Below, piece by piece: positions 2,466 to 49,608 of a stretch of DNA of 63,747 nt. Position 1 is the stretch's first letter; the number at the start of each line of letters is the position of its first letter. The notes beneath the pieces were generated by a model, which saw only the letters and a program-made list of their open reading frames with translations, made no database searches and was not told where the DNA came from. Source of the stretch: an uncultured Bacilli bacterium (GTDB lineage: Bacteria; Bacillota_I; Bacilli_A; RF39; UBA660); assembly GCA_947624515.1 (NCBI GenBank), contig CANQKN010000002.1:1-63747 (forward strand), in the 5' to 3' direction. The position numbers and the translations under genes were made by a program.

Positions 2466-4262
2466 TTAACTCATAGCTCGTTTAAATAATTTTTCCAAAT
2501 CATATTTGGAATAAGTAATAATTGTTGGTCTACCATGTGGACAAGTAAAGGGATTCTCACAAGATCTTAATCGATCCAGTAAGACTTCCATATCTGCTAG
2601 CATAATATGATCATTTGCTTTGATACTCGCCTTACAAGCAACAGTTGCTGCAATATGATCTAAGAATCGATCTAATTGAAAATCTTCTTTAGAAACAATA
2701 ATATCGATAATATGGCGAAGTGCCTGTTCCGTATTTGATTTGGTAAGCCAAATAGGAATACTACGAATTACTAAAGTCTGAAAGCCAAATTCTTCATAAC
2801 CAATTCCTAAATCATCCAGTAAATTAAAATTTTCTTTTAAAATAATATATTCATTACTTGGAAATTCTAAAGTAATGGGTACTAGTAAATCAATAATCTC
2901 AGGTTTAGGATTACTCATTTCCTTTAAATAATATTCATAATTAATTCTTTCATTAGCAGCATGTTGATCAATCAAGTACATTCCATCTTCATTTTCAGCA
3001 ACAATATAAGTTGCATGAACAAGTCCTACTGGATACATTTTTTTGATTCGTTCTTTCGTAGAATCTGTTGTTTCCACCATACTTGTAGAAGAGGTTTCTT
3101 TTTGATAGGGAATTTCTTTTTCTTTGACATCAAAATTTAAGGTCATTTTTTCAAATTCTTGGAATTCTTCAACTTTTTTGAACTCATTAAACTCTTCAAA
3201 TTTATTAGGAGTATATACAGTAGAAATTCTAGTTTTATTTTCATCCACTATGGTTTCTAAAGCAGCATCCGGTATTAATGTTAAAGTTTCTAATTTATCT
3301 GTAATAACTGTTGTTATTAAATCCTTTAAAGTATCGATTTTGGAAAACTTAACATTCATTTTAGTTGGATGTACATTAACATCAACCAAAATAGGATCCA
3401 CTTTAATTTTTAAGACAACAATTGGATATTTATCTTGTGGAATATAAGTATGGTAACTATCTGTAATATAACGAATAATATCCGTATTGTGAATTACTCT
3501 ACCATTTACTAAAAGAGTAATAGCATTTTTATTACTTTTTTGCAGTTCTGGATAAGAAATATATCCTTCTAATTGATAATCTTCATTTTCTCCCTTGATT
3601 TCAATCATCTTTTTTGTAACAGATAATCCATAGATATCATTAATAACTTTTAAAAGTCGATTACTACCATCCGTTTTTAAAAGTACCTTATCATTATTTG
3701 TTAATAAAAAACGAATATTGGGATAACTGAAAGCCATTTTATTGACATAATCTGTAATATAGGAAAGCTCAGTATATAGATTTTTTAAATATTTTAATCG
3801 TACTGGTGTATTATAAAATAAGTTTTTTACAGTAATGGTGGTTCCTTGGGTTAAATCACTGGAATTTACCGAAATTAATTTACCTCCATGAATTTCTACT
3901 TCAGTTCCTGTTTCTCCATTACAGGTTTTTAAAGTAACATTGGATACACTGGCAATGGAAGGTAAGGCTTCACCACGAAAACCTAAACTATGAATATGAA
4001 ATAAATCTTTTTCGTTAGTAAGTTTACTAGTCGCATGTCTGGAAAAGGCAAGAACAGCATCTTCTTTGTCCATTCCGATTCCATTATCCGTTACTTTTAT
4101 TTCTTTGACACCAGAATCCTGTAATCCTATTTTAATTTCGGTACTTTGAGCATCAATAGCATTTTCAACTAGTTCTTTTACTACATTCATGCATTTTTCA
4201 ACAACTTCGCCTGCTGCAATTTTATTAGCTAGTACCTCATCCATAATTTGAATTTTACTCAT
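2466..4262 (-). CDS. mutL: DNA mismatch repair protein MutL
   Basis: 598 aa; GHKL ATPase motifs ANKIAAGEVVE, ELVENAIDA, TDNGIGM, LGFRGEAL. C-terminal DQHAANERINYE and CPHGRP. Confidence 0.95.
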   Translation of the reverse strand: MSKIQIMDEVLANKIAAGEVVEKCMNVVKELVENAIDAQSTEIKIGLQDSGVKEIKVTDNGIGMDKEDAVLAFSRHATSKLTNEKDLFHIHSLGFRGEALPSIASVSNVTLKTCNGETGTEVEIHGGKLISVNSSDLTQGTTITVKNLFYNTPVRLKYLKNLYTELSYITDYVNKMAFSYPNIRFLLTNNDKVLLKTDGSNRLLKVINDIYGLSVTKKMIEIKGENEDYQLEGYISYPELQKSNKNAITLLVNGRVIHNTDIIRYITDSYHTYIPQDKYPIVVLKIKVDPILVDVNVHPTKMNVKFSKIDTLKDLITTVITDKLETLTLIPDAALETIVDENKTRISTVYTPNKFEEFNEFKKVEEFQEFEKMTLNFDVKEKEIPYQKETSSTSMVETTDSTKERIKKMYPVGLVHATYIVAENEDGMYLIDQHAANERINYEYYLKEMSNPKPEIIDLLVPITLEFPSNEYIILKENFNLLDDLGIGYEEFGFQTLVIRSIPIWLTKSNTEQALRHIIDIIVSKEDFQLDRFLDHIAATVACKASIKANDHIMLADMEVLLDRLRSCENPFTCPHGRPTIITYSKYDLEKLFKRAMS

Positions 4263-30251: not shown

Positions 30252-30328
30252 TGGTAGCGAGAGGGGGGATCGAACCCTCGACCCCACGGGTATGAACCGT
30301 GTGCTCTAGCCAGCTGAGCTACCTCGCC
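30252..30328 (-). tRNA. tRNA with CAT anticodon (elongator Met, or Ile2 if lysidinylated)
   Basis: 77-nt cloverleaf read by hand. Arms: GGCGAGG/TA/GCTC-AGCTGGCTA-GAGC/A/CACGG-TTCATAC-CCGTG/GGGTC/GAGGG-TTCGATC-CCCCC/TCTCGCT/A/CCA. The anticodon stem lacks the three G-C pairs of initiators. One A:C mismatch in the T stem. Confidence 0.85.
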
Positions 30329-40670: not shown

Positions 40671-40688
40671 AAAGTGAGGTGCAATATC

Positions 40689-42113
40689 ATGATAGAAAAA
40701 CTAAAAAAAGATACCAACCAAGTAAGTGATATTATCGATAAAAAAATAGAAATTAACCATCAAACAATTCACATTCTATATTCCGAAGTATTAGCTAGTA
40801 GTGAAGATATTACTAATATTATTTTGAAAAACATCAGTTACATTGTAGAGGAAAATTTATTAAAGGACGAAGATTTATTTACCTATCTATATAATAATAT
40901 TCCTGGTCATAATCGAGTAAGAATCAAAGATTATTCAGACTTTTTAAAAAAAATTTGGAATGGTTACACCATTATTTACATAAATGATCAAGAAATATTT
41001 GCATTTGAAACCAAAGCCCAACTTGATCGTGGAATTAACACAGTAGATAGTGAACTATCAATTCGTGGACCAAAAGACAGTTTTACAGAAAATTTTAATA
41101 AAAATTTTGGACTCATACGAAGAAGAATTAAGAGTAATCATTTATGGCTTACTGACTTAGAAATAGGAAAAGAAACTAAGACAAAAGTTGGAATTCTATA
41201 TATGCAAAATATTGTAGAAGATACTCTAGTAGAAGAAATTGTTTCCAATTTAAAAAAAATTAATATTGATGGCATTATTGATAGTGGTTATTTAAAAAAA
41301 TATTTAGTGAAAAAAAATAGTGTTTTTCCAACCATTATTACTACAGAAAGACCTGATTTAGTCAGTATGGCTTTATTAGAAGGAAAATGTTGTATTTTAG
41401 TAGATAATAGTCCTTATGCACTCATTATGCCATGTTTTTTTATCGACTTTTTTCATACCCCAGATGATTATTATCAAAAGGCAGTCAGTATAACTTTTAT
41501 TCGTTTTATTCGCGTACTTGCCTTTTTAATTGCAATCTTTATTCCTGCCTATTATATTGCTATTACAACACATAATCACGATTCGGTTACTACAGATCTG
41601 TTACTTAACTTTTTATCACAGAGAAGATCTGTTCCCTTTCCGGCTTTAGTAGAAGGATTAATTATGACAATATCTTTTGAAATTTTAAGAGAAAGTGATA
41701 TGCGAATGGCATCTACTATGGGAACAGCAGTATCCATTTTGGGTGGCCTTGTTTTAGGAGATGCTGCTGTTCAAGCAGGAATTATCTCTCCTATTATGAT
41801 TATTGTAGTTGCAATTAGTGCTATTTCTGGTCTTGCTTTCACTTCGATTGAATTAACATCTGCTATTCGTTTTTGGCGAATTTTACTCATGATTTTAGCA
41901 GCAATGTTAGGTATTTATGGAATCTTCCTAGGACTCATTTTACTAGTAACTAAACTTGCTAGTATTACCTCTTTCCAACAACCATACTTAGCTCCTTTTT
42001 CTCCTTTTATTAAAGTAGAACAGAAAGATGCAATCCTAAAAATTAATAATGGAAATCATATTAAAAAACGAAACCCATTACTAACCACTAAAAATAGAGT
42101 ACGAGGTCGATAA
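40689..42113 (+). CDS. spore germination protein, GerA family A subunit
   Basis: GerAA-like motifs FPTIITTERPD, ALLEGKCCILVDNSPYALIMP and C-terminal TM bundle. Start at ATG 40689, 8 nt after a GTGAGGTG SD. Confidence 0.9.
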   Translation: MIEKLKKDTNQVSDIIDKKIEINHQTIHILYSEVLASSEDITNIILKNISYIVEENLLKDEDLFTYLYNNIPGHNRVRIKDYSDFLKKIWNGYTIIYINDQEIFAFETKAQLDRGINTVDSELSIRGPKDSFTENFNKNFGLIRRRIKSNHLWLTDLEIGKETKTKVGILYMQNIVEDTLVEEIVSNLKKINIDGIIDSGYLKKYLVKKNSVFPTIITTERPDLVSMALLEGKCCILVDNSPYALIMPCFFIDFFHTPDDYYQKAVSITFIRFIRVLAFLIAIFIPAYYIAITTHNHDSVTTDLLLNFLSQRRSVPFPALVEGLIMTISFEILRESDMRMASTMGTAVSILGGLVLGDAAVQAGIISPIMIIVVAISAISGLAFTSIELTSAIRFWRILLMILAAMLGIYGIFLGLILLVTKLASITSFQQPYLAPFSPFIKVEQKDAILKINNGNHIKKRNPLLTTKNRVRGR

Positions 42114-42114
42114 A

Positions 42115-43107
42115 ATGAAAAGATGGCTATTTATATGTATAAGTATTTTTCTACTAACAGGATGTACATCTTATACAGAATTAAATGAATTAAGTATTGT
42201 AAACACTTTAGGAATTGATTATCAAGAAAACAAATATCAATTAACAGTCAATGTAATGGATGGAAATTTAGATGATGGTAAAATTGAAGAAAAGATTACA
42301 ACTTATACTAGTCAAGGAACAACTTTAGAAGAAGCTTTTCAAATGATTTATCGAAAAAGCGAAAAAAGAATTTATTTATCACATATTGATTTACTTATTT
42401 TAACAGAAGATGCCATTAATAATCATTTAATCGATATTATTGAAAACTTCTTACAAAATAATGAATATCGTAATAATTTTAATGTTGTCTTACTAAAAGA
42501 TATTTCCTTAAAAGACTTTATGGAAAAGAAATTAGTAGCAGAACAAATAAATAATTTATTAAACACGAATTATAAAGAAACGGCTATGACAAAACCACAA
42601 GATTTAGAAACGATGATGCAAGAACTATTAATGGATAAAAATACCTATCTACCAACAATTACCGATCAAAATGATGAAATCTTTTTAAGAGGATTAACTC
42701 TTATTAAAAATAATCAAATTCTAGAAGAACTAACCATAGAAGATACCATTCTTTTTAATCTACTGAAAAACACTCTACATAAAACTACTATCTCTCCCTA
42801 TATGATTTCGGAAAATCAGACTTTAGTGACAACGAAAAAGAATGAGATTTATTTTCATTTTCATACCATAGTAAATCAAAAGGATGATTTCGAAAAACAA
42901 ATGAAATCGAAATTACTATCTTTTCTAACAAAATATCAACAAAAAGATTATGATATTTTAAAACTAACCCAAAAAATTTATCAAAATGATTATCACTACT
43001 ATCAACAAACGCCAAATTTATTATCAAAATTAAATTTTCATTTTTCATTTGAAATAAAGGAAAAAGAAAACTATTTACAAGGAGAATTATTTTATGAAAC
43101 TAGATAA
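42115..43107 (+). CDS. Ger(x)C family spore germination lipoprotein
   Basis: 330 aa; lipobox LLTGC, ELNELSIVNTLGIDY start typical of GerAC-type proteins. Confidence 0.88.
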   Translation: MKRWLFICISIFLLTGCTSYTELNELSIVNTLGIDYQENKYQLTVNVMDGNLDDGKIEEKITTYTSQGTTLEEAFQMIYRKSEKRIYLSHIDLLILTEDAINNHLIDIIENFLQNNEYRNNFNVVLLKDISLKDFMEKKLVAEQINNLLNTNYKETAMTKPQDLETMMQELLMDKNTYLPTITDQNDEIFLRGLTLIKNNQILEELTIEDTILFNLLKNTLHKTTISPYMISENQTLVTTKKNEIYFHFHTIVNQKDDFEKQMKSKLLSFLTKYQQKDYDILKLTQKIYQNDYHYYQQTPNLLSKLNFHFSFEIKEKENYLQGELFYETR

Positions 43108-44158
43108 AATTACCTCTTACCAATATGCAACACTTACTTTTTTTCTATTAAATTCTTTTAGTATGAATGTTGGCTATTATACATTAACGAATCAAACTGG
43201 AAATGATTGTATCTTTTCCATTTTATTAGGTGGCATTTTAATTTTAATATTAGCAAGTTTGATTTTTTATCTCCATGAGAAATACCCAGATGGCATCATA
43301 GAAACCTTAAGAAAAAAATTTCCTATATTTCTACAAATTCTATTTTATCCTTGTTTCTTTTTATTAATAGCAGCTAGTAGTATTTATTCGTTCTCACTCC
43401 TAATTTCATTTCTTCACTATTATGTATTAAAAGAAGTAGGATTATTAACTATTTCTTTTAGTCTCATGATTACAGTATTATATATTGTAAAGAAAGGCAT
43501 AAAAACAATTAGTAAAATTAGCGAAATCTTTTTCTATTTTTCTATCTTTATCTTTTTCTTTGGTGCAATTGGTCTTATCAAATATCTGAATTTATCGAAT
43601 TTAAAGCCTTTACTTACAACTACCATTCAAAAAAATATATCGAGTTCCCTTACTTACTTTTTATCATCAATTATTCCTTTTTTCTTATTATTTTCTATTC
43701 CCAAAAAAGAAATGGAACCTACCAAAAATTTTAAAAAATTACCTTATCTTTTGACTCTTTTATCAATTATTTTAACATTTATACAGTTGGTAATTATTCT
43801 TTCCGTATTAGGAATTCATCTAACAAATATCTATCAAAATCCAGACATGATCATTTATAAAAAGATATCTTTTTTAAATATTTTAGAACGCGTAGAAGTA
43901 TTTTTAGCTTTTAATAATATTTTAAATAGTTTATTTATAATTATATTAGGAATTCACTTTATGAATCAAATGATAAATAGTCTACTAAAAAAGAAAAAAG
44001 AGCATATTTCTTTAGCTCTTATTGGTCTATTTTTTATAATGGTAACAACTCTATTTACTTTTCCACTTTCTTTGTACTTAAAAACTAGTATTTTAATATT
44101 TTTACTATTTGGTATTTTTATTCTATGCTGTCTGAAGTACAAGTATAACCATCATTAG
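43094..44158 (+). CDS. spore germination permease, GerAB type
   Basis: 354 aa, about 10 TM; ITSYQYATLTFFLLNSF N-terminus typical of spore permeases. Confidence 0.85.
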   Translation: MKLDKITSYQYATLTFFLLNSFSMNVGYYTLTNQTGNDCIFSILLGGILILILASLIFYLHEKYPDGIIETLRKKFPIFLQILFYPCFFLLIAASSIYSFSLLISFLHYYVLKEVGLLTISFSLMITVLYIVKKGIKTISKISEIFFYFSIFIFFFGAIGLIKYLNLSNLKPLLTTTIQKNISSSLTYFLSSIIPFFLLFSIPKKEMEPTKNFKKLPYLLTLLSIILTFIQLVIILSVLGIHLTNIYQNPDMIIYKKISFLNILERVEVFLAFNNILNSLFIIILGIHFMNQMINSLLKKKKEHISLALIGLFFIMVTTLFTFPLSLYLKTSILIFLLFGIFILCCLKYKYNHH

Positions 44159-46100: not shown

Positions 46101-47039
46101 TTATTTTAAATAAAGACTTTTTCCTGCTTCTAAATATATAATATATTTTCCAGTTTTATTACAGTGAAAAATTAATCTTGGATACTGTTTTTGCAGTTTT
46201 TCTAATTCTTCTTGGCATGGTGTAATTGTTTCTTCTTTTGGATAATATTTGGTCCAATTTTCATTCATGGCAATCCAATAAGATTCTACTTTTACCCAAA
46301 CGTAATCTGTTTGTTTCTTTTCTTCTAAAACTTGATAAATTCCTTTTTGAATGTAACCATTACTAGAAGAAGTAGTACTAGGATCACTTCTAGCATACAA
46401 ATCATCTACTAATACTTCTACTTGATTCATAGAAGGATCTCGACTAATAGGAGTTCCTACGATTTTTTTTTCGTCTTTTGGTAACTCTTTCCAAATTAAG
46501 GATCCACCCCAAATTTCATTGGTAAAACTTCGATCAAGATAAAATACATCTTCTGGCTTTAAGGATGTTCCTGGTGTCATAATCCAAGCTCCATTTGAAT
46601 TTTGTTTCCAATTATCACAGTATCCACGCCCACAAGACATATGAATATGATTAGCAGTAGCGCCATCTACTCCTTCATAACAAATGATTTCGCCTCTTTT
46701 AAAAGTATCCCCTACTTTGATATTTTTTAAGTCAGAATCATTAGAATGTGTAAGAGCAATATAAGCAATATCGGTAAATGTTGGTGTAACAACTGGAGAA
46801 GTAGATACTAACCAAATGGTATTCGTGTAACCGTTTCCTACTCCCTGCACATTCGTAACTTTCATTTCGTCACAACAACAGTAAATAGGATCTCTTCCCG
46901 TATCCTTACCAGCATCATCAATTGGATAATCTACCAAACCATCTGTAACATTAATACAATGATTACGATGGCTTCCTTCATCATATCGACAAGTAATACG
47001 CATATTTTTTAAAGGATAAGTCATATAATTTTTAGTCAT
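46101..47039 (-). CDS. M23-family peptidoglycan hydrolase (phage endolysin type) with SH3-like C-domain
   Basis: RITCRYDEGSH...DDAGKDTGRDPIY...TIWLVS...HSNDSDL..VGD...EGVDGATANHIHM matches the M23 lysin pattern (H/D then HxH). The C-terminus (YVWVKVESYWIAMNENW) is SH3b-like. Start at ATG 47039 after an AGGAGA SD, overlapping the holin stop (ATGACTAA). Confidence 0.8.
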   Translation of the reverse strand: MTKNYMTYPLKNMRITCRYDEGSHRNHCINVTDGLVDYPIDDAGKDTGRDPIYCCCDEMKVTNVQGVGNGYTNTIWLVSTSPVVTPTFTDIAYIALTHSNDSDLKNIKVGDTFKRGEIICYEGVDGATANHIHMSCGRGYCDNWKQNSNGAWIMTPGTSLKPEDVFYLDRSFTNEIWGGSLIWKELPKDEKKIVGTPISRDPSMNQVEVLVDDLYARSDPSTTSSSNGYIQKGIYQVLEEKKQTDYVWVKVESYWIAMNENWTKYYPKEETITPCQEELEKLQKQYPRLIFHCNKTGKYIIYLEAGKSLYLK

Positions 47040-47400
47040 AATCAATCTCTCCTATAATATCATGATCTTGAGAATCAGGGCTAATTTCTGATGGTAGATT
47101 TGTATCATCTTTTTTACCTACTAAATCAGTATAACTAGAAAGTTTACCTTCTAAGCTCTTATAGATACTATCAGCTCCTAAAAAACTAAATAATCCAACC
47201 CACAAACTATGAATGAAATTGGCATTTGTGAAAGTTTGACAAAAGAAGAACCCTAATATCATATTAGTAAGAAAACCTTGTATAATAATACATTTACTAT
47301 TTCGACAAAACTTCTTTGTCTTCTGAATAAAAATCACCGTAATACTACTACATGCAATAGCGATAACTAATAAGTTTTGAAGTAAGCTCCAATTTAACAT
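47032..47400 (-). CDS. putative holin
   Basis: 122 aa from ATG 47400 (AAGGAAGGG SD). Three TM segments and a charged C-terminal tail; translationally coupled to the lysin gene. Confidence 0.6.
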   Translation of the reverse strand: MLNWSLLQNLLVIAIACSSITVIFIQKTKKFCRNSKCIIIQGFLTNMILGFFFCQTFTNANFIHSLWVGLFSFLGADSIYKSLEGKLSSYTDLVGKKDDTNLPSEISPDSQDHDIIGEIDYD

Positions 47401-47524
47401 ATTATCCCTTCCTTTCATCATATTATATGAAGGAAAGAAGAGGATGCCTGTTAGTTTAACACAGGAAAAAAGGAAAAAAGGACTTGCATCTCATACTAAT
47501 TTATATTAAACTATAAGAGTAATT

Positions 47525-47598
47525 GCCGATTTAGTTTAGCGGTAAAACAGGCCCTTGGTAAGGGTCAGAGGACATTTCGACTATGTCATTCGGCACCA
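47525..47598 (+). tRNA. tRNA-Thr (GGT anticodon), atypical
   Basis: 74-nt cloverleaf. Arms: GCCGATT/TA/GTTT-AGCGGTA-AAAC/A/GGCCC-TTGGTAA-GGGTC/AGAG/GACAT-TTCGACT-ATGTC/ATTCGGC/A/CCA. It has a U6:U67 mismatch and U53-A61 instead of the near-universal G53-C61. Confidence 0.75.
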
Positions 47599-47617
47599 GA
47601 TAGATACCAAACTCGGA
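47592..47617 (+). repeat. att-like direct repeat, copy 1 (tRNA-Thr 3' end plus flank)
   Basis: GGCACCAGATAGATACCAAACTCGGA; compare 48517..48541. Confidence 0.6.
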
Positions 47618-47636
47618 CTATTATAGTTCGGGTTTT
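47612..47636 (+). terminator. intrinsic terminator after tRNA-Thr
   Basis: CTCGGACT-ATTAT-AGTTCGGG (8 bp including 2 G:U) followed by TTTT. Confidence 0.55.
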
Positions 47637-47714
47637 AAAATGTTTGAAAATATGATACAATATTTTTAGATTTAAATTGATATATTTGTCAATTTAGAAA
47701 AACATACTTGCGTA

Positions 47715-47742
47715 TTGACAACCAATGCGTGTGTATTATAAT
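47715..47742 (+). promoter_or_regulatory. consensus sigma-A promoter
   Basis: TTGACA - 16 nt - TATAAT. Confidence 0.6.
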
Positions 47743-47828
47743 ACTACAAATAGGAGAAATAGTCTGAAAAATAATTATTTTCATGACTATGTGTGTCTTC
47801 AACGAAGTGAAAGGAATGTGTGGTTAAT

Positions 47829-48443
47829 ATGAGTTTGAATAGAATTATGGCTAATATGATGGCCGGTAGTAATGCAAAAATAATTTCTGGAGAAATTAGT
47901 GGAAATGTTGATCCATATATTGAATGGATAAAATGGTTATCATATCTACCAGAATTTCAAAAAGCGAGAATACAGGAATTAAATTCTAAAATAGTAGAAG
48001 AATTGAGTTTAGAAGAATTAGATGAGATAAGAGCTTATAAAAGTCAAATTAGAATGTTAGATCTATTTAAAATATATGGTACAAGTGAGATTTCTAAAAA
48101 AGAATATATGGAAGTTTCTGATTTTATGGTAAATCAATCTATAGAAGAATTAATGCTTAGCAAGTTGTCTTCGGGAGAACTTAGATATGCAAAAGACCAA
48201 ATACAATACTTTAGTCAAATTCCAAGTGAAGAATTAAGAAAAAAAGTAAATGAAGAACAAAAAGCCAATAATTATGAAGAATTGTCTATGGTGGACTCTT
48301 ATGTTTTACATATTGTATCAAGGGTTGATTTTGCAAGAAATATGGCAAGACTTAATAGTGAAATAGAAGCTCAACTTAGAGAAAATGATGCTATGAGACA
48401 AAGAAGTTTATATTTTGCTGCTAATCCTTATATAAAAAGATAA
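47829..48443 (+). CDS. hypothetical helical acidic protein (sole gene of the islet)
   Basis: 204-aa ORF from ATG 47829; the track uses GTG at 47820. No TM and no recognisable motif. A strong terminator follows. Confidence 0.6.
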   Translation: MSLNRIMANMMAGSNAKIISGEISGNVDPYIEWIKWLSYLPEFQKARIQELNSKIVEELSLEELDEIRAYKSQIRMLDLFKIYGTSEISKKEYMEVSDFMVNQSIEELMLSKLSSGELRYAKDQIQYFSQIPSEELRKKVNEEQKANNYEELSMVDSYVLHIVSRVDFARNMARLNSEIEAQLRENDAMRQRSLYFAANPYIKR

Positions 48444-48448
48444 TTTAT

Positions 48449-48490
48449 AAATAGTTAGTTAATGATTTATTACTAACTATTTCTTTGTTC
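48449..48490 (+). terminator. intrinsic terminator
   Basis: 11-bp perfect stem AAATAGTTAGT / ACTAACTATTT followed by TCTTTGTT. Confidence 0.7.
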
Positions 48491-48516
48491 AAAAATTGTT
48501 GTACTCCTTCCTTTAG

Positions 48517-48541
48517 GGCACCAGATTGATAGTTACTCGGA
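48517..48541 (+). repeat. att-like direct repeat, copy 2
   Basis: GGCACCAGATTGATAGTTACTCGGA. The first 15 nt differ from copy 1 at one position, ACTCGGA is shared, and a TACTCG-GAAAATT-CGAGTA hairpin follows. Confidence 0.6.
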
Positions 48542-48567
48542 AAATTCGAGTAAAAATAGAACACGAC

Positions 48568-48595
48568 TTGTAAAAGTACGTTTTTATGTTATTAT
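48568..48595 (+). promoter_or_regulatory. sigma-A-type promoter with extended -10
   Basis: TTGTAA - 16 nt - TATTAT preceded by TGT (TGnTATTAT). Confidence 0.4.
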
Positions 48596-48601
48596 GTATT
48601 T

Positions 48602-48712
48602 GTCAAGGAAACTTGCATAAAGTAATAAGGGAAGACTTAACTTTGCCGAGTTGAGTACTTGCCCTTAAGTGGTAAGCACTTAATCTATGCTAGATTGAGT
48701 GCTATTTCTTTA
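48602..48712 (+). ncRNA. candidate small RNA (about 105 nt), promoter-to-terminator unit without a credible ORF
   Basis: Bounded by the promoter above and a 13-bp hairpin AGCACTTAATCTA-TGC-TAGATTGAGTGCT (48675-48703) plus ATTTCTTTAT. An internal TAAGGG...CCCTTA helix is possible. The only ORF is 22 codons with no SD. Confidence 0.3.
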
Positions 48713-48930
48713 TACATAGAATCATTACAGAGACTATTAATAAAATGTTTACTTTTTTTAAATAATAATTGTCTTCCAGATACCGTATATAAATTTATAA
48801 TATCACGATCATCAATAGTATTAAACTTGACTTTTTGAAATCCTAATCTTTCCAAATCCAATACATAATTGAAAGTTGCTAAATTTAGATTAATACAATG
48901 AAAAATTGAAAAATAAAAAAGAAGTAGCTA

Positions 48931-49608
48931 TCAAAGCATCTTCTTCATTTGTTTTTCTTTATTTTTTAATGTCTCCTGTTGATAATCAGCAGAATAATCC
49001 ATTTCTTTTTTATGTTTATACTTCATAAACTCTTCTATATGATTTTCTATAAAAGCAACTAATTCAAAAGGAAGTCCTACTTTTCTTACCATATTTTTTC
49101 TAGTCGTTTCTGATAATGAACTCTCTTTTTCTCCAAAAATAATCAACTCATCAATATTAGCATCTTCAAAAGCAGCATCATTTTTAAAATCTAAAATATC
49201 CTCTTCTCTATTTACAAAAGACCACTGTAGACATAGCTGTTTTTCATCATCATTTTTTAATGTATAAAATAAAGTTGGTTCACCAAATTTTTCTTTGAGT
49301 ATCTCATAAAAATCACTTAATACTGCCAATTTATGTCCTTCCGTTTGTGGATAAACTTCATCTTGTATAACCAATCTTAAAAATTGATCATGGCAGTACT
49401 TAATTCCAAAAGTAATGCAATCACGATCTCTATTACAGATATTATAATCATAATAATCATATGAAAAAGAATAATACCTTCCTACAATAATATTAGAATA
49501 ACAACAATCAAAATCAATTTTATTCCAATTAAGACCTTGATTTATTTTTTCAACCAAGAATTTTTTAAGTTCCCGACAATCATTAGCATTCGACATAATA
49601 TTTTTCAT
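48931..49608 (-). CDS. hypothetical protein
   Basis: 225-aa ORF, Cys/Tyr-rich N-half (DFDCCY...YDYYDYNICNRDRDC), charged C-terminus; no family recognised. Confidence 0.55.
   Translation of the reverse strand: MKNIMSNANDCRELKKFLVEKINQGLNWNKIDFDCCYSNIIVGRYYSFSYDYYDYNICNRDRDCITFGIKYCHDQFLRLVIQDEVYPQTEGHKLAVLSDFYEILKEKFGEPTLFYTLKNDDEKQLCLQWSFVNREEDILDFKNDAAFEDANIDELIIFGEKESSLSETTRKNMVRKVGLPFELVAFIENHIEEFMKYKHKKEMDYSADYQQETLKNKEKQMKKML

What the first reader, a model, noticed from the sequence alone, without database searches (positions are those of the whole stretch)
47525..48546. About 0.9-kb single-gene islet bracketed by a duplicated tRNA-Thr 3' end, with no integrase
The 3' end of the tRNA-Thr gene plus its flank (47592-47617, GGCACCAGATAGATACCAAACTCGGA) recurs at 48517-48541 (GGCACCAGATTGATAGTTACTCGGA). 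The first 10 nt are identical, 14 of the first 15 match, and the shared ACTCGGA opens a hairpin in both copies. Similarity stops exactly at the GGCACCA acceptor end, which is the classical footprint of site-specific integration into a tRNA 3' end. The bracketed DNA has no recombinase. It holds a consensus TTGACA-16-TATAAT promoter, a leader of roughly 80 nt with a long AT-rich hairpin, and one 204-aa helical acidic ORF with no motif I recognise. An 11-bp perfect-stem terminator closes the unit. It could be the last remnant of a decayed island, or a minimal cassette mobilised in trans by an integrase encoded elsewhere. Strongly expressed single-gene cargo at tRNA hotspots is often involved in phage-host conflict. 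That functional suggestion is pure inference.
Basis: partly seen in the sequence, partly recalled or inferred. Interest (0 to 1): 0.7.

Follow-up and report, generated by a model that had tools for sequence, protein, structure and literature searches.

The report
Integrase-less mini mobile element at tRNA-Thr
The 0.9-kb islet is a stripped-down, recombinase-less relative of small mobile elements that insert exactly at the CCA end of tRNA genes in uncultured gut Bacilli; it keeps both element ends and carries one conserved gene of unknown function, so it is a new variant of a known kind of element.

Summary
GGCACCAGAT occurs only at 47592 and 48517, and each copy is followed by an ACTCGGA hairpin.

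Comparative data support the integration reading. The bracketed 925 bp (47599-48523) carry a left end (H1 hairpin box) and a right end (hairpin, A box, pseudo-acceptor end GGCACCA). Both are homologous to the ends of 4.4-5.7-kb integrative mobilizable elements. Those elements encode a large serine recombinase and a Mob_Pre relaxase, and they sit directly after the CCA of tRNA-Leu, tRNA-Thr and tRNA-Arg genes in gut metagenomes.

The islet has neither enzyme. It fits the definition of a CIME, a cis-mobilizable remnant that keeps attL and attR. The second repeat copy is the left end of a neighbouring decayed cassette, a type I toxin-antitoxin-like sRNA module.

The 204-aa gene is under purifying selection and occurs in at least 37 species. 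It lies same-strand downstream of nine different tRNA or tmRNA genes (14 of 37 loci against about 1 expected), and no flanking gene is conserved with it. A 96.7%-identical copy (L014) has different flanks on both sides, and its homology ends exactly at GGCACCA. A sister cassette is present or absent at a tmRNA CCA end within one species.

The protein's function remains unknown: no family, fold, phage or plasmid match was found.

The parts
47525..47598 (+). tRNA-Thr (anticodon GGT) with encoded CCA. Its last 7 nt, GGCACCA (47592-47598), are the attL-side core.
   Evidence: ARAGORN; Rfam tRNA at 53.7 bits; sequence.
47599..47645 (+). Left end of the cassette (H1a): GATAGATACC, then the hairpin AAACTCGGAC..GTTCGGGTTT (47609-47635) and a T-run. 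It also serves as the tRNA's terminator.
   Evidence: Fold -12.6 kcal/mol, z -3.3. The same box follows unrelated tRNAs and the left ends of LSR elements.
47715..47742 (+). Consensus sigma-70-type promoter TTGACA-16-TATAAT for the cargo gene. An 8-bp inverted repeat, TTGTCAAT (47686-47693) and ATTGACAA (47714-47721), overlaps the -35 hexamer.
   Evidence: 12 of 12 match; conserved in L014, L015 and L005; inverted repeat read from the sequence.
47743..47828 (+). 5' untranslated leader of about 80 nt. The AT-rich hairpin at 47759-47790 is not significant and not conserved.
   Evidence: z -0.38. Window 47768-47824 has no counterpart in L015.
47829..48443 (+). Cargo gene: a 204-aa all-alpha cytoplasmic protein of an unnamed family. 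No domain or fold match.
   Evidence: 151 homologs at 94-50% identity, all about 204-207 aa. 274 representative clusters, none listed longer than about 212 aa, so no sign of domain fusions. dN/dS 0.22-0.49. AlphaFold2 pLDDT 84. No Pfam, PHROG, PADLOC, NCBIfam, PDB or BFVD match.
48449..48523 (+). Right end of the cassette: hairpin 48449-48482, A box 48490-48516, and the pseudo-acceptor end GGCACCA 48517-48523 (attR-side core). The family's conserved AGTT reads AATT here (48494-48497).
   Evidence: Alignment A2 shows 45 invariant columns shared with the right ends of LSR-bearing elements L123, L067 and L028. A-box copies listed. Homology to L014, L005 and L008 stops at 48516-48523. Family consensus.
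48524..48556 (+). H1b: the second repeat copy. It is the left end of the next (older or later) cassette, with its hairpin at 48533-48553.
   Evidence: The same H1-to-B arrangement at fixed spacing directly follows true tRNAs in 6 metagenome loci and in L022.
48568..48713 (+). Element B: promoter 48568-48595 plus a roughly 115-nt structured small RNA with a terminator at 48675-48703. It is probably the antitoxin RNA of a decayed type I toxin-antitoxin module belonging to the neighbouring cassette.
   Evidence: Promoter and terminator scan. Fold -41.2 kcal/mol, z -4.8. Conserved in many loci. No Rfam family.
48701..48757 (-). Remnant of the small hydrophobic toxin ORF (..KKVNILLIVSVMILCIKK*), convergent with the small RNA. 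Its start is lost in the window.
   Evidence: Translation. Intact 25-36-aa peptides such as MKKKDLLISFLILIIILLIVSLMILCIKK occur in 16 of 26 B modules elsewhere.

Best explanation
Window 47599-48523 is a 925-bp non-autonomous element. It derives from a family of integrative mobilizable elements (IMEs) that encode a large serine recombinase (LSR) and a Mob_Pre (MobV-type) relaxase, and that integrate exactly at the (G)CACCA 3' end of tRNA and tmRNA genes in uncultured gut Bacilli.

Shown:
- The islet keeps the family's left end (H1 box) and right end (hairpin, A box, GGCACCA).
- It has lost the recombinase and relaxase.
- It carries one promoter-equipped cargo gene.
- It sits in tandem with a second decayed cassette (H1b plus a type I toxin-antitoxin-like sRNA), which supplies the second repeat copy.

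Inferred mechanism:
- A cognate LSR made elsewhere in the cell binds the joined ends of the circular form. That site is A box + GCACCA + H box, a rough palindrome AAAGTT-N21-CA-N21-AACTTT.
- It also binds a tRNA 3' end, and exchanges strands at a dinucleotide inside CACCA.
- The tRNA stays intact, and the element's left hairpin becomes the tRNA's terminator.
- The element's right end mimics an acceptor end and becomes the next landing site, so cassettes stack in arrays.

The mini-element can therefore be excised, moved or co-mobilised only in trans or in cis with neighbours, which makes it CIME-like. The cargo protein acts alone, since no partner gene is conserved with it. Its biochemical role is unknown.
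For: Ends:
- The right-end block 48449-48523 aligns with the right ends of LSR-bearing elements (45 invariant columns).
- The left end aligns with the H1 boxes after tRNAs and at LSR-element left ends.

Autonomous relatives:
- L123 reads tRNA-Leu(CAA), then H1, an 88-aa ORF, the LSR (Resolvase + Recombinase + Zn_ribbon_recom), Mob_Pre, a 275-aa ORF, and hairpin + A + GGCACCA followed by another H1.
- LSR genes or fragments start 360-580 nt after the CCA at 19 junctions.
- These elements are 4.4-5.7 kb and end in AGTT-N19-20-GCACCA.
- The same 4.6-kb IME (LSR 97.5-99.8% identical) sits at tRNA-Leu in L123 and L126, and at a pseudo-end in L059.

Link to the cargo gene:
- An LSR pseudogene lies directly upstream of the 204-aa gene in L028.
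- An LSR fragment abuts a truncated copy of the gene after tRNA-Thr(CGT) in L049.

Mobility:
- L014 is 96.7% identical over 47604-48523 only, with both flanks different.
- The gene follows nine different tRNA or tmRNA genes. 14 of 37 loci have one against 1.0 expected, P 6e-12, and none is on the opposite strand.
- No flanking gene family is shared.
- L011 has an empty tmRNA site (..CTCCACCA|ATAAGAAAAT). L013 is 99% identical in the flanks but carries a 2.85-kb integrase-less insert bounded by an H2 box and ..GGCACCA.
- The 'empty' configuration, tRNA followed by H1 and B at +79 to +85, occurs after true tRNAs.

Site structure: of 126 GCACCA|GATTGAT junctions in metagenomes, 68 follow true tRNAs and about 50 follow pseudo-ends. 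Dyad symmetry of the attP-like junctions peaks at the CA of GCACCA (weak).
Against: - No LSR was found in the 63.7-kb window, and the rest of this genome is unseen.
- No empty tRNA-Thr site was found for this species.
- Only 74 nt of L014's left flank are available, and they show no recognisable CCA end.
- The window's A box reads AATT where the family has the highly conserved AGTT, so this copy may be crippled.
- The 204-aa family is absent from the 80 junction loci (L057-L136) that were screened with its profile.
- The crossover position and the enzyme-site pairing are inferred from synteny, not shown.
- Textbook LSRs recombine attP with attB, not with the hybrid sites that tandem accretion implies.
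Confidence: 0.75

Rival explanations
1. Inert fossil. The origin is the same (a decayed LSR element at tRNA-Thr), but this copy no longer moves. The gene persists because it is useful, and the different contexts in other species come from independent decay of full elements or from composite transfers.
For: No LSR in the window. AGTT reads AATT in the A box. L015 and L016 share the same composite gene-A-H1b-B, which suggests inheritance or movement as a larger block. The neighbouring toxin gene has decayed.
Against: The same internally deleted mini-structure (H1a, promoter, gene, A) is present at 96.7% identity in L014 with other flanks. Independent decay would not give identical internal boundaries. 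Integrase-less sister cassettes are polymorphic within one species.
Confidence: 0.3
2. Shuffling by homologous recombination. H and A boxes are dispersed repeats, and cassettes are swapped by general recombination between them (as with Neisseria minimal mobile elements), without a site-specific enzyme.
For: The H1, H2, A and B boxes recur in many combinations and orders. Boundaries at tRNA ends could partly reflect selection on the tRNA.
Against: The boxes are short (30-50 nt) and only about 60-80% identical, which is poor substrate for homologous recombination. Insert boundaries fall on CACCA in the tmRNA example, whose native trailer has no H box. LSR genes sit at a fixed distance from the junction.
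Confidence: 0.08
3. The 204-aa protein is itself the mobility factor, for example a recombination directionality factor or a new recombinase, which would make the cassette semi-autonomous.
For: It is the only gene that travels with the ends. It lies directly next to LSR genes in L028 and L049. It has many invariant Lys, Tyr, Trp and His residues and no known fold.
Against: There is no similarity to any recombinase or known directionality factor. There are only one or two copies per genome, and divergence is gradual. It is absent from the LSR elements found in metagenomes. It occupies the variable cargo slot that holds a different gene in L123.
Confidence: 0.07
4. A chance repeat next to a vertically inherited core gene.
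For: Shuffling gives only P of about 0.04-0.1 if 5-15 kb are allowed.
Against: The homology breakpoints coincide with the repeat. The gene has a different tRNA neighbour in each species. The ends are homologous to those of mobile elements.
Confidence: 0.02

Closest known systems
CIMEs (cis-mobilizable elements) left by decay of ICEs or IMEs, e.g. the ICESt1/ICESt3 family in Streptococcus thermophilus and the tRNA-Lys islands of S. agalactiae (definition in PMC5704250)
   Same: [quoted passage not shown] It lies in tandem with another element at the 3' end of a tRNA gene. Accretion of cassettes occurs at the same site.
   Different: The described CIMEs derive from tyrosine-integrase elements with one specific target. 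Here the parents use a large serine recombinase, the shared core is only (G)CACCA, and many different tRNA and tmRNA genes are used. The unit is a single gene of under 1 kb and is found in at least 37 species.
Tn4451/Tn4453 family of Clostridia (IMEs with the large serine recombinase TnpX and the MobV relaxase TnpZ; PMC5704250)
   Same: The autonomous relatives (L123 type) have the same two-enzyme make-up (LSR plus Mob_Pre), a small size (4.4-5.7 kb) and presumably a 2-bp crossover. TnpX needs no directionality factor, which would make trans-excision of a mini-element simple.
   Different: Tn4451 inserts with low specificity. The LSR here is only about 33% identical to the best-matching plasmid-borne LSRs in PLSDB and targets tRNA CCA ends. 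The window element has neither enzyme.
Tycheposons of Prochlorococcus (bioRxiv 10.1101/2020.12.28.424599)
   Same: Elements stack at tRNA genes, pushing older ones inward and leaving degenerate elements and partial tRNA copies in islands.
   Different: As described in the text read here, tycheposons carry integrase genes (a tyrosine recombinase is labelled in the figure legend) and leave partial tRNAs as their attachment-site repeats. The host phylum is different.
Integron gene cassettes and integrase-less attC clusters (CALINs) (own knowledge)
   Same: Arrays of small, mostly single-gene units, each ending in a recombination site, moved by a recombinase encoded elsewhere.
   Different: There is no IntI and no folded attC site. 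Cassettes here bring their own promoters, and the anchor is a tRNA gene end.

Membership tests
CIME (cis-mobilizable element) | Flanked by attL and attR sites of the kind used by an autonomous integrative element | tested here: met
   The left and right ends align with the ends of LSR + Mob_Pre elements.
CIME (cis-mobilizable element) | Lacks integration and transfer genes | tested here: met
   The only ORF is the 204-aa protein with no recombinase or relaxase domain. tblastn with the LSR and the Mob protein found nothing in the window.
CIME (cis-mobilizable element) | Derived from an ICE or IME by deletion | tested here: inconclusive
   L028 (LSR pseudogene, then gene, TA module and A end) and L049 (LSR fragment abutting a truncated copy of the gene) look like intermediates. 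No direct ancestor of the window copy was found.
CIME (cis-mobilizable element) | Can be excised or transferred together with, or by, a resident autonomous element | not testable with these tools
   Only indirect evidence: an identical mini-structure in another context (L014), and a strain-level presence/absence of a sister cassette.
Integrative mobilizable element with large serine recombinase (Tn4451-like) | Encodes its own serine recombinase | tested here: not met
   None in 47599-48523, and no homolog of the related elements' LSR anywhere in the window. Pfam scans of 30 ORFs between 33.9 and 63.6 kb found no recombinase.
Integrative mobilizable element with large serine recombinase (Tn4451-like) | Encodes a relaxase or oriT | tested here: not met
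   No Mob_Pre homolog. oriT was not assessable.
Classical tRNA-integrated island (tyrosine integrase type) | Tyrosine integrase gene next to the tRNA | tested here: not met
   None in the window region. The relatives that have a recombinase have a serine recombinase.
Classical tRNA-integrated island (tyrosine integrase type) | Direct repeat made of a sizeable 3' segment of the tRNA at the distal end | tested here: inconclusive
   Only 7 nt of the tRNA (GGCACCA) recur. Other members' right ends resemble a decayed tRNA-Thr 3' part, CATTCG(G)CACCA after a small hairpin.
Integron cassette | attC site and IntI-type integrase platform | tested here: not met
   No such integrase. The ends are H and A boxes, and cassettes carry their own promoters.
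IS200/IS605-type (PATE-like) element | Subterminal hairpins recognised by a Y1 transposase, with insertion 3' of a short target | tested here: not met
   The GTAG/CTAC hairpin near the right end is absent in the window-type A box. The enzyme found at a fixed distance from the ends is a serine recombinase.

The most novel reading that the evidence does not exclude
In these gut Bacilli, the CCA ends of tRNA and tmRNA genes work as integron-like platforms. One clade of large serine recombinases recognises the generic (G)CACCA acceptor end and the mimic of it at each element's right end. Promoter-bearing, often single-gene cassettes are thereby stacked, shuffled and exchanged in trans. The 204-aa gene is the most widespread such cassette, possibly because its product helps excision or transfer (directionality-factor-like) or protects its carrier.
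Probability: 0.2. Interest if true: 0.75.

Novelty: new variant of a known kind. Interest (0 to 1): 0.5.

Why it matters
Integrase-less remnants at tRNA genes are well known, so the islet itself is not a new principle. Three points go beyond routine.

1. The parent elements pair a large serine recombinase with tRNA 3' ends. The IME review read here describes serine-recombinase IMEs as integrating inside protein-coding genes, and tRNA ends as targets of tyrosine recombinases (PMC5704250).

2. The shared core is only the near-universal (G)CACCA, and each element's right end copies it. This explains how many different tRNAs are used and how cassette arrays build up.

3. A single unnamed 204-aa gene with no recognisable fold travels on this system through at least 37 uncultured species.

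An LSR that lands on a conserved tRNA end without breaking the tRNA could interest people who develop integration tools. The cargo gene is a clean candidate for functional study.

Tried and rejected
- Rfam, at gathering thresholds and in permissive mode, found only the tRNAs.
- The A box was tested as a displaced tmRNA 3' end. The tmRNA ends ..CTCCACCA with an ordinary T-arm and is unrelated.
- A short peptide or ribosome-binding site on the reverse strand of the A box is not conserved between copies (read).
- An IS200/IS605-like single-strand transposition model was considered, because of the short target and the end hairpins. It was dropped once LSR genes were found at a fixed distance from the left end, and because the right-end hairpin is not conserved in the window-type A box.
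- The A-box motif in IMG/VR gave 6 hits, all of them chance matches in coding DNA.
- The protein family has no match in IMG/VR, PLSDB plasmids or GenBank phages.
- The function searches gave nothing significant: Pfam, PHROGs, PADLOC, NCBIfam, PDB by sequence (best hit Rrp5 HAT repeats, E 0.15), and Foldseek against PDB and BFVD (best TM about 0.2).
- Exact-protein look-ups of the gene and its flanks, aimed at finding an empty site, gave only short contigs with the same arrangement, or nothing.
- The recombinase search covered 30 ORFs between 33.9 and 63.6 kb with Pfam, plus tblastn of the related elements' LSR against the whole window. Both were negative; the ORFs below 33.9 kb were not scanned with Pfam.
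- Clustering of flanking ORFs in 41 loci found no partner gene.
- L014's left junction could not be resolved, because only 74 nt of flank are available.
Full report
**1. The observation.**

The window is AT-rich (about 27% GC). It encodes ordinary chromosomal functions around the locus: a GerA-type spore germination operon, NAD salvage genes and tRNA modification enzymes.

- tRNA-Thr(GGT) lies at 47525-47598 with an encoded CCA.
- GGCACCAGAT occurs only at 47592 and 48517 in the whole window, and ACTCGGA only at 47611 and 48535.
- Both ACTCGGA motifs open hairpins.
- Also present as described: a 12-of-12 consensus promoter (47715-47742), a 204-aa ORF (47829-48443) and a perfect-stem hairpin after it (48449-48482).
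- The leader hairpin is no better than shuffled sequence (z -0.4) and is missing in a close relative.
- By itself the repeat is borderline. An equal alignment score appears in 1 of 300 shuffles of the next 1 kb, but in 13 of 300 for 5 kb.

**2. The gene is conserved and has no fixed address.**

- The protein has 151 homologs from 94% down to about 50% identity, nearly all 204-207 aa and unnamed.
- An exhaustive profile search found 274 clusters. The listed hits are all about 200 aa or shorter, so there is no sign of domain fusions.
- dN/dS against ten relatives is 0.22-0.49.
- One genome per species: 37 species carry it, all of them uncultured gut 'Bacilli', 'Firmicutes' or 'Tenericutes' MAGs from rabbit, human, mouse and chicken.
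- In 14 of 37 loci a tRNA or tmRNA gene ends within 1.4 kb upstream on the same strand, against about 1.0 expected (P 6e-12). None is on the opposite strand.
- The RNA genes differ between loci: Thr-GGT, Thr-CGT, Leu-CAA, Leu-TAG, Met-CAT, Glu-CTC and Arg-ACG tRNAs and tmRNA. Val-CAC also occurs, just beyond that limit in L035.
- Clustering all flanking ORFs found no gene family that travels with it.

This rules out a core gene always adjacent to this tRNA.

**3. The repeat marks real breakpoints.**

- L014 carries a 98%-identical protein. It matches the window at 96.7% over 47604-48523 only. Homology ends exactly at GGCACCA, and both flanks are different DNA.
- Homology to L005 and to L008 also stops at 48516-48523.
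- In L008/L022 the sequence to the right of the window's second copy (48520-48628) lies directly after the CCA of tRNA-Glu, upstream of the gene.

**4. Recurrent end modules.**

Unrelated tRNAs in different species are followed by one of two conserved trailers:
- H1: CCA|GATTGAT..AAACTCGRAC hairpin.
- H2: CCA|TTGACGAATCTGTTCGAACTATTCGAAC.

The same trailers also follow a non-tRNA box, 'A' (..AAAGTTGTTGTACTCCTTCCTTTAGG-GCACCA), which ends like an acceptor stem.

An empty versus occupied pair exists within one species:
- L011 reads tmRNA ..CTCCACCA|ATAAGAAAATAACC.
- L013 is 99% identical in the flanks. It reads ..CTCCACCA|TAGGGAAATCTGCTCGAACTATTCGAAC (an H2 box), then 2.85 kb without any recombinase, then ..GTCGTCGGCACCA|ATATGAAAATAACC.

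So inserts begin with an H box and end with ..GCACCA. The only sequence they share with the target is CACCA.

**5. The enzyme.**

- Of 126 junctions, 68 follow true tRNAs: Leu-CAA 20, Thr-CGT 15, Thr-GGT 14, Leu-TAG 11, Arg 6, other Leu 2. About 50 follow A-type pseudo-ends.
- Clustering the neighbouring ORFs found a protein of about 620-640 aa starting a few hundred nt after the junction on the same strand. tblastn with it places full genes or fragments 360-580 nt after the CCA at 19 junctions.
- Pfam identifies it as a large serine recombinase (Resolvase + Recombinase + Zn_ribbon_recom). A Mob_Pre relaxase follows it.
- L123 is a complete example: tRNA-Leu(CAA), H1, an 88-aa ORF, the LSR, Mob_Pre, a 275-aa ORF on the minus strand, then hairpin + A box + GGCACCA followed by the next H1.
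- These elements are 4.4-5.7 kb and end in AGTT-N19-20-GCACCA.
- The same 4.6-kb element (LSR 97.5-99.8% identical) sits at tRNA-Leu in two contigs and at a pseudo-end in a third. Pseudo-ends are therefore real landing sites, which explains the tandem arrays seen in L090, L083, L172, L005 and L021.
- The joined-ends site has its best dyad symmetry centred on the CA of GCACCA. This is weak evidence, but it fits a serine-recombinase site with a central dinucleotide.

**6. Placing the window islet.**

- Its left end (47599-47645) is an H1 box.
- The LSR and Mob genes are absent from the islet and from the whole window.
- Probable intermediates exist. In L028 an LSR pseudogene lies directly upstream of the 204-aa gene, followed by the toxin-antitoxin-like module and the A end. 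In L049 an LSR fragment abuts a truncated copy of the gene just after tRNA-Thr(CGT)|H1.
- The gene thus occupies the variable cargo slot next to the right end, which holds a different gene in L123.
- The second repeat copy (48524-48556) is the H1 box of a different cassette, 'B'. Elsewhere that cassette abuts true tRNAs at the same spacing, with B at +79 to +85 (L022).
- The layout is therefore tRNA-Thr | mini-element | decayed B cassette.

[quoted passage not shown] The islet meets the two structural criteria. Its derivation and mobilisation remain inferred.

**7. Shown and inferred.**

Shown:
- The end homologies.
- The association of these ends with LSR + Mob elements.
- tRNA-end targeting across many tRNAs.
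- Context changes of the mini-element.
- The strain-level polymorphism of a sister cassette.

Inferred:
- That the LSR is the enzyme acting on these ends.
- That crossover lies inside CACCA.
- That the window copy can still move.

Caveats:
- No LSR is seen in this genome fragment.
- No empty tRNA-Thr site was found.
- L014's left junction is unresolved.
- The window's A box has AATT where the family has a highly conserved AGTT.
- Accretion requires the LSR to accept hybrid sites, which textbook LSRs do not (own knowledge).

**8. The cargo protein.**

- The AlphaFold2 model is confident (pLDDT 84, pTM 0.80) and all-helical.
- It has no structural neighbour in PDB or BFVD (best TM about 0.2).
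- It has no significant family match. By sequence against PDB, only an E 0.15 resemblance to HAT repeats appears.
- It is absent from IMG/VR, PLSDB and GenBank phages.
- Acidity is not conserved (pI 5.2-9.2).
- It needs no conserved partner.

I can commit only to this: it is a self-sufficient cytoplasmic cargo protein of mobile cassettes. A role in element maintenance or conflict is a guess. A directionality-factor-like role is suggested only by its adjacency to LSR genes in two loci.

**9. Comparison and novelty.**

- CIMEs, tandem accretion and decayed arrays at tRNA genes are established (PMC5704250; PMC12084326; tycheposons).
- LSR + MobV elements are known from the Tn4451 family, where the LSR alone excises and integrates through a 2-bp crossover.
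- The review read here describes serine-recombinase IMEs as integrating within protein-coding genes, and tRNA 3' ends as tyrosine-recombinase targets. A literature search did not turn up an LSR family aimed at tRNA CCA ends, though that search is limited.
- The LSR is only about 33% identical to the best-matching plasmid-borne LSRs in PLSDB.

I therefore rate the finding a new variant of a known kind, of moderate interest.

Noticed in passing
window 48568-48757 (also L011 8640-8990, L028 4480-4700): This is a conserved promoter plus a roughly 115-nt structured small RNA (z -4.8), convergent with a 25-36-aa hydrophobic peptide gene (e.g. MKKKDLLISFLILIIILLIVSLMILCIKK). It looks like a type I toxin-antitoxin module with no Rfam family. 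The peptide is intact in 16 of 26 copies elsewhere, but in the window only its 3' part remains.
   Followed up: partly
window 46101-47421 (minus strand): Two overlapping genes lie just left of the tRNA, with weak PHROG hits to a holin (E 0.003) and a lysis amidase (E 2e-5). They could be a lysis cassette remnant or a sporulation-related pair.
   Followed up: no
window 48931-49608 (minus strand); L028 744-1445: The 225-aa ORF to the right of the B module has a 44%-identical homolog immediately upstream of the LSR pseudogene in L028. It may also be former cargo of the same element family, so the decayed island may extend to about 49.6 kb.
   Followed up: partly
window 30252-30328 (minus strand) and its trailer: The trailer of the window's tRNA-Met(CAT), AAAAGAAATTTTGCTCAAA.., resembles the start of the H2-type trailer after tRNA-Met in L020. 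This could be a second, more decayed landing site.
   Followed up: no
L011, L012, L013 (tmRNA at 3392-3781, 755-1144 and 529-919): Within one species, whose 207-aa protein is identical across the contigs, the tmRNA CCA end is empty in L011. In L013 it carries a 2.85-kb cassette with a 572-aa nucleotidyltransferase-like protein. In L012 it carries a different array with LSR and Mob fragments.
   Followed up: partly
L059, L123, L126: The same 4.6-kb LSR + Mob_Pre element (LSR 97.5-99.8% identical) is integrated at tRNA-Leu(CAA) in two contigs and at a non-tRNA pseudo-acceptor end in a third. More distant LSRs (57-60% identical to L123's), which were not compared with one another, sit at Thr-CGT, Leu-CAA and Leu-TAG.
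   Followed up: partly
window 47686-47693 and 47714-47721: A perfect 8-bp inverted repeat, TTGTCAAT ... ATTGACAA, has its second arm overlapping the -35 hexamer of the cargo promoter. It may be an operator. L005 has a different palindrome (ATTGACTCGTCAAT) at the same place.
   Followed up: no
L011 7690-7960; L028 3490-3760: In the 59%-identity clade, the gene is preceded by a roughly 500-nt region with several TCATCCTAT / ATAGGATGA repeats, which look like a regulator's binding sites.
   Followed up: no
window 48494-48497: The most conserved motif of the family's right arm, AGTT, reads AATT in the window copy. L014, L015, L005 and the LSR elements all have AGTT. This may have disabled the site.
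   Followed up: partly
window 40674-44158: A GerA / GerAC / spore-permease operon shows the organism is a spore former, although related MAGs are labelled 'uncultured Tenericutes' or 'Bacilli'.
   Followed up: no
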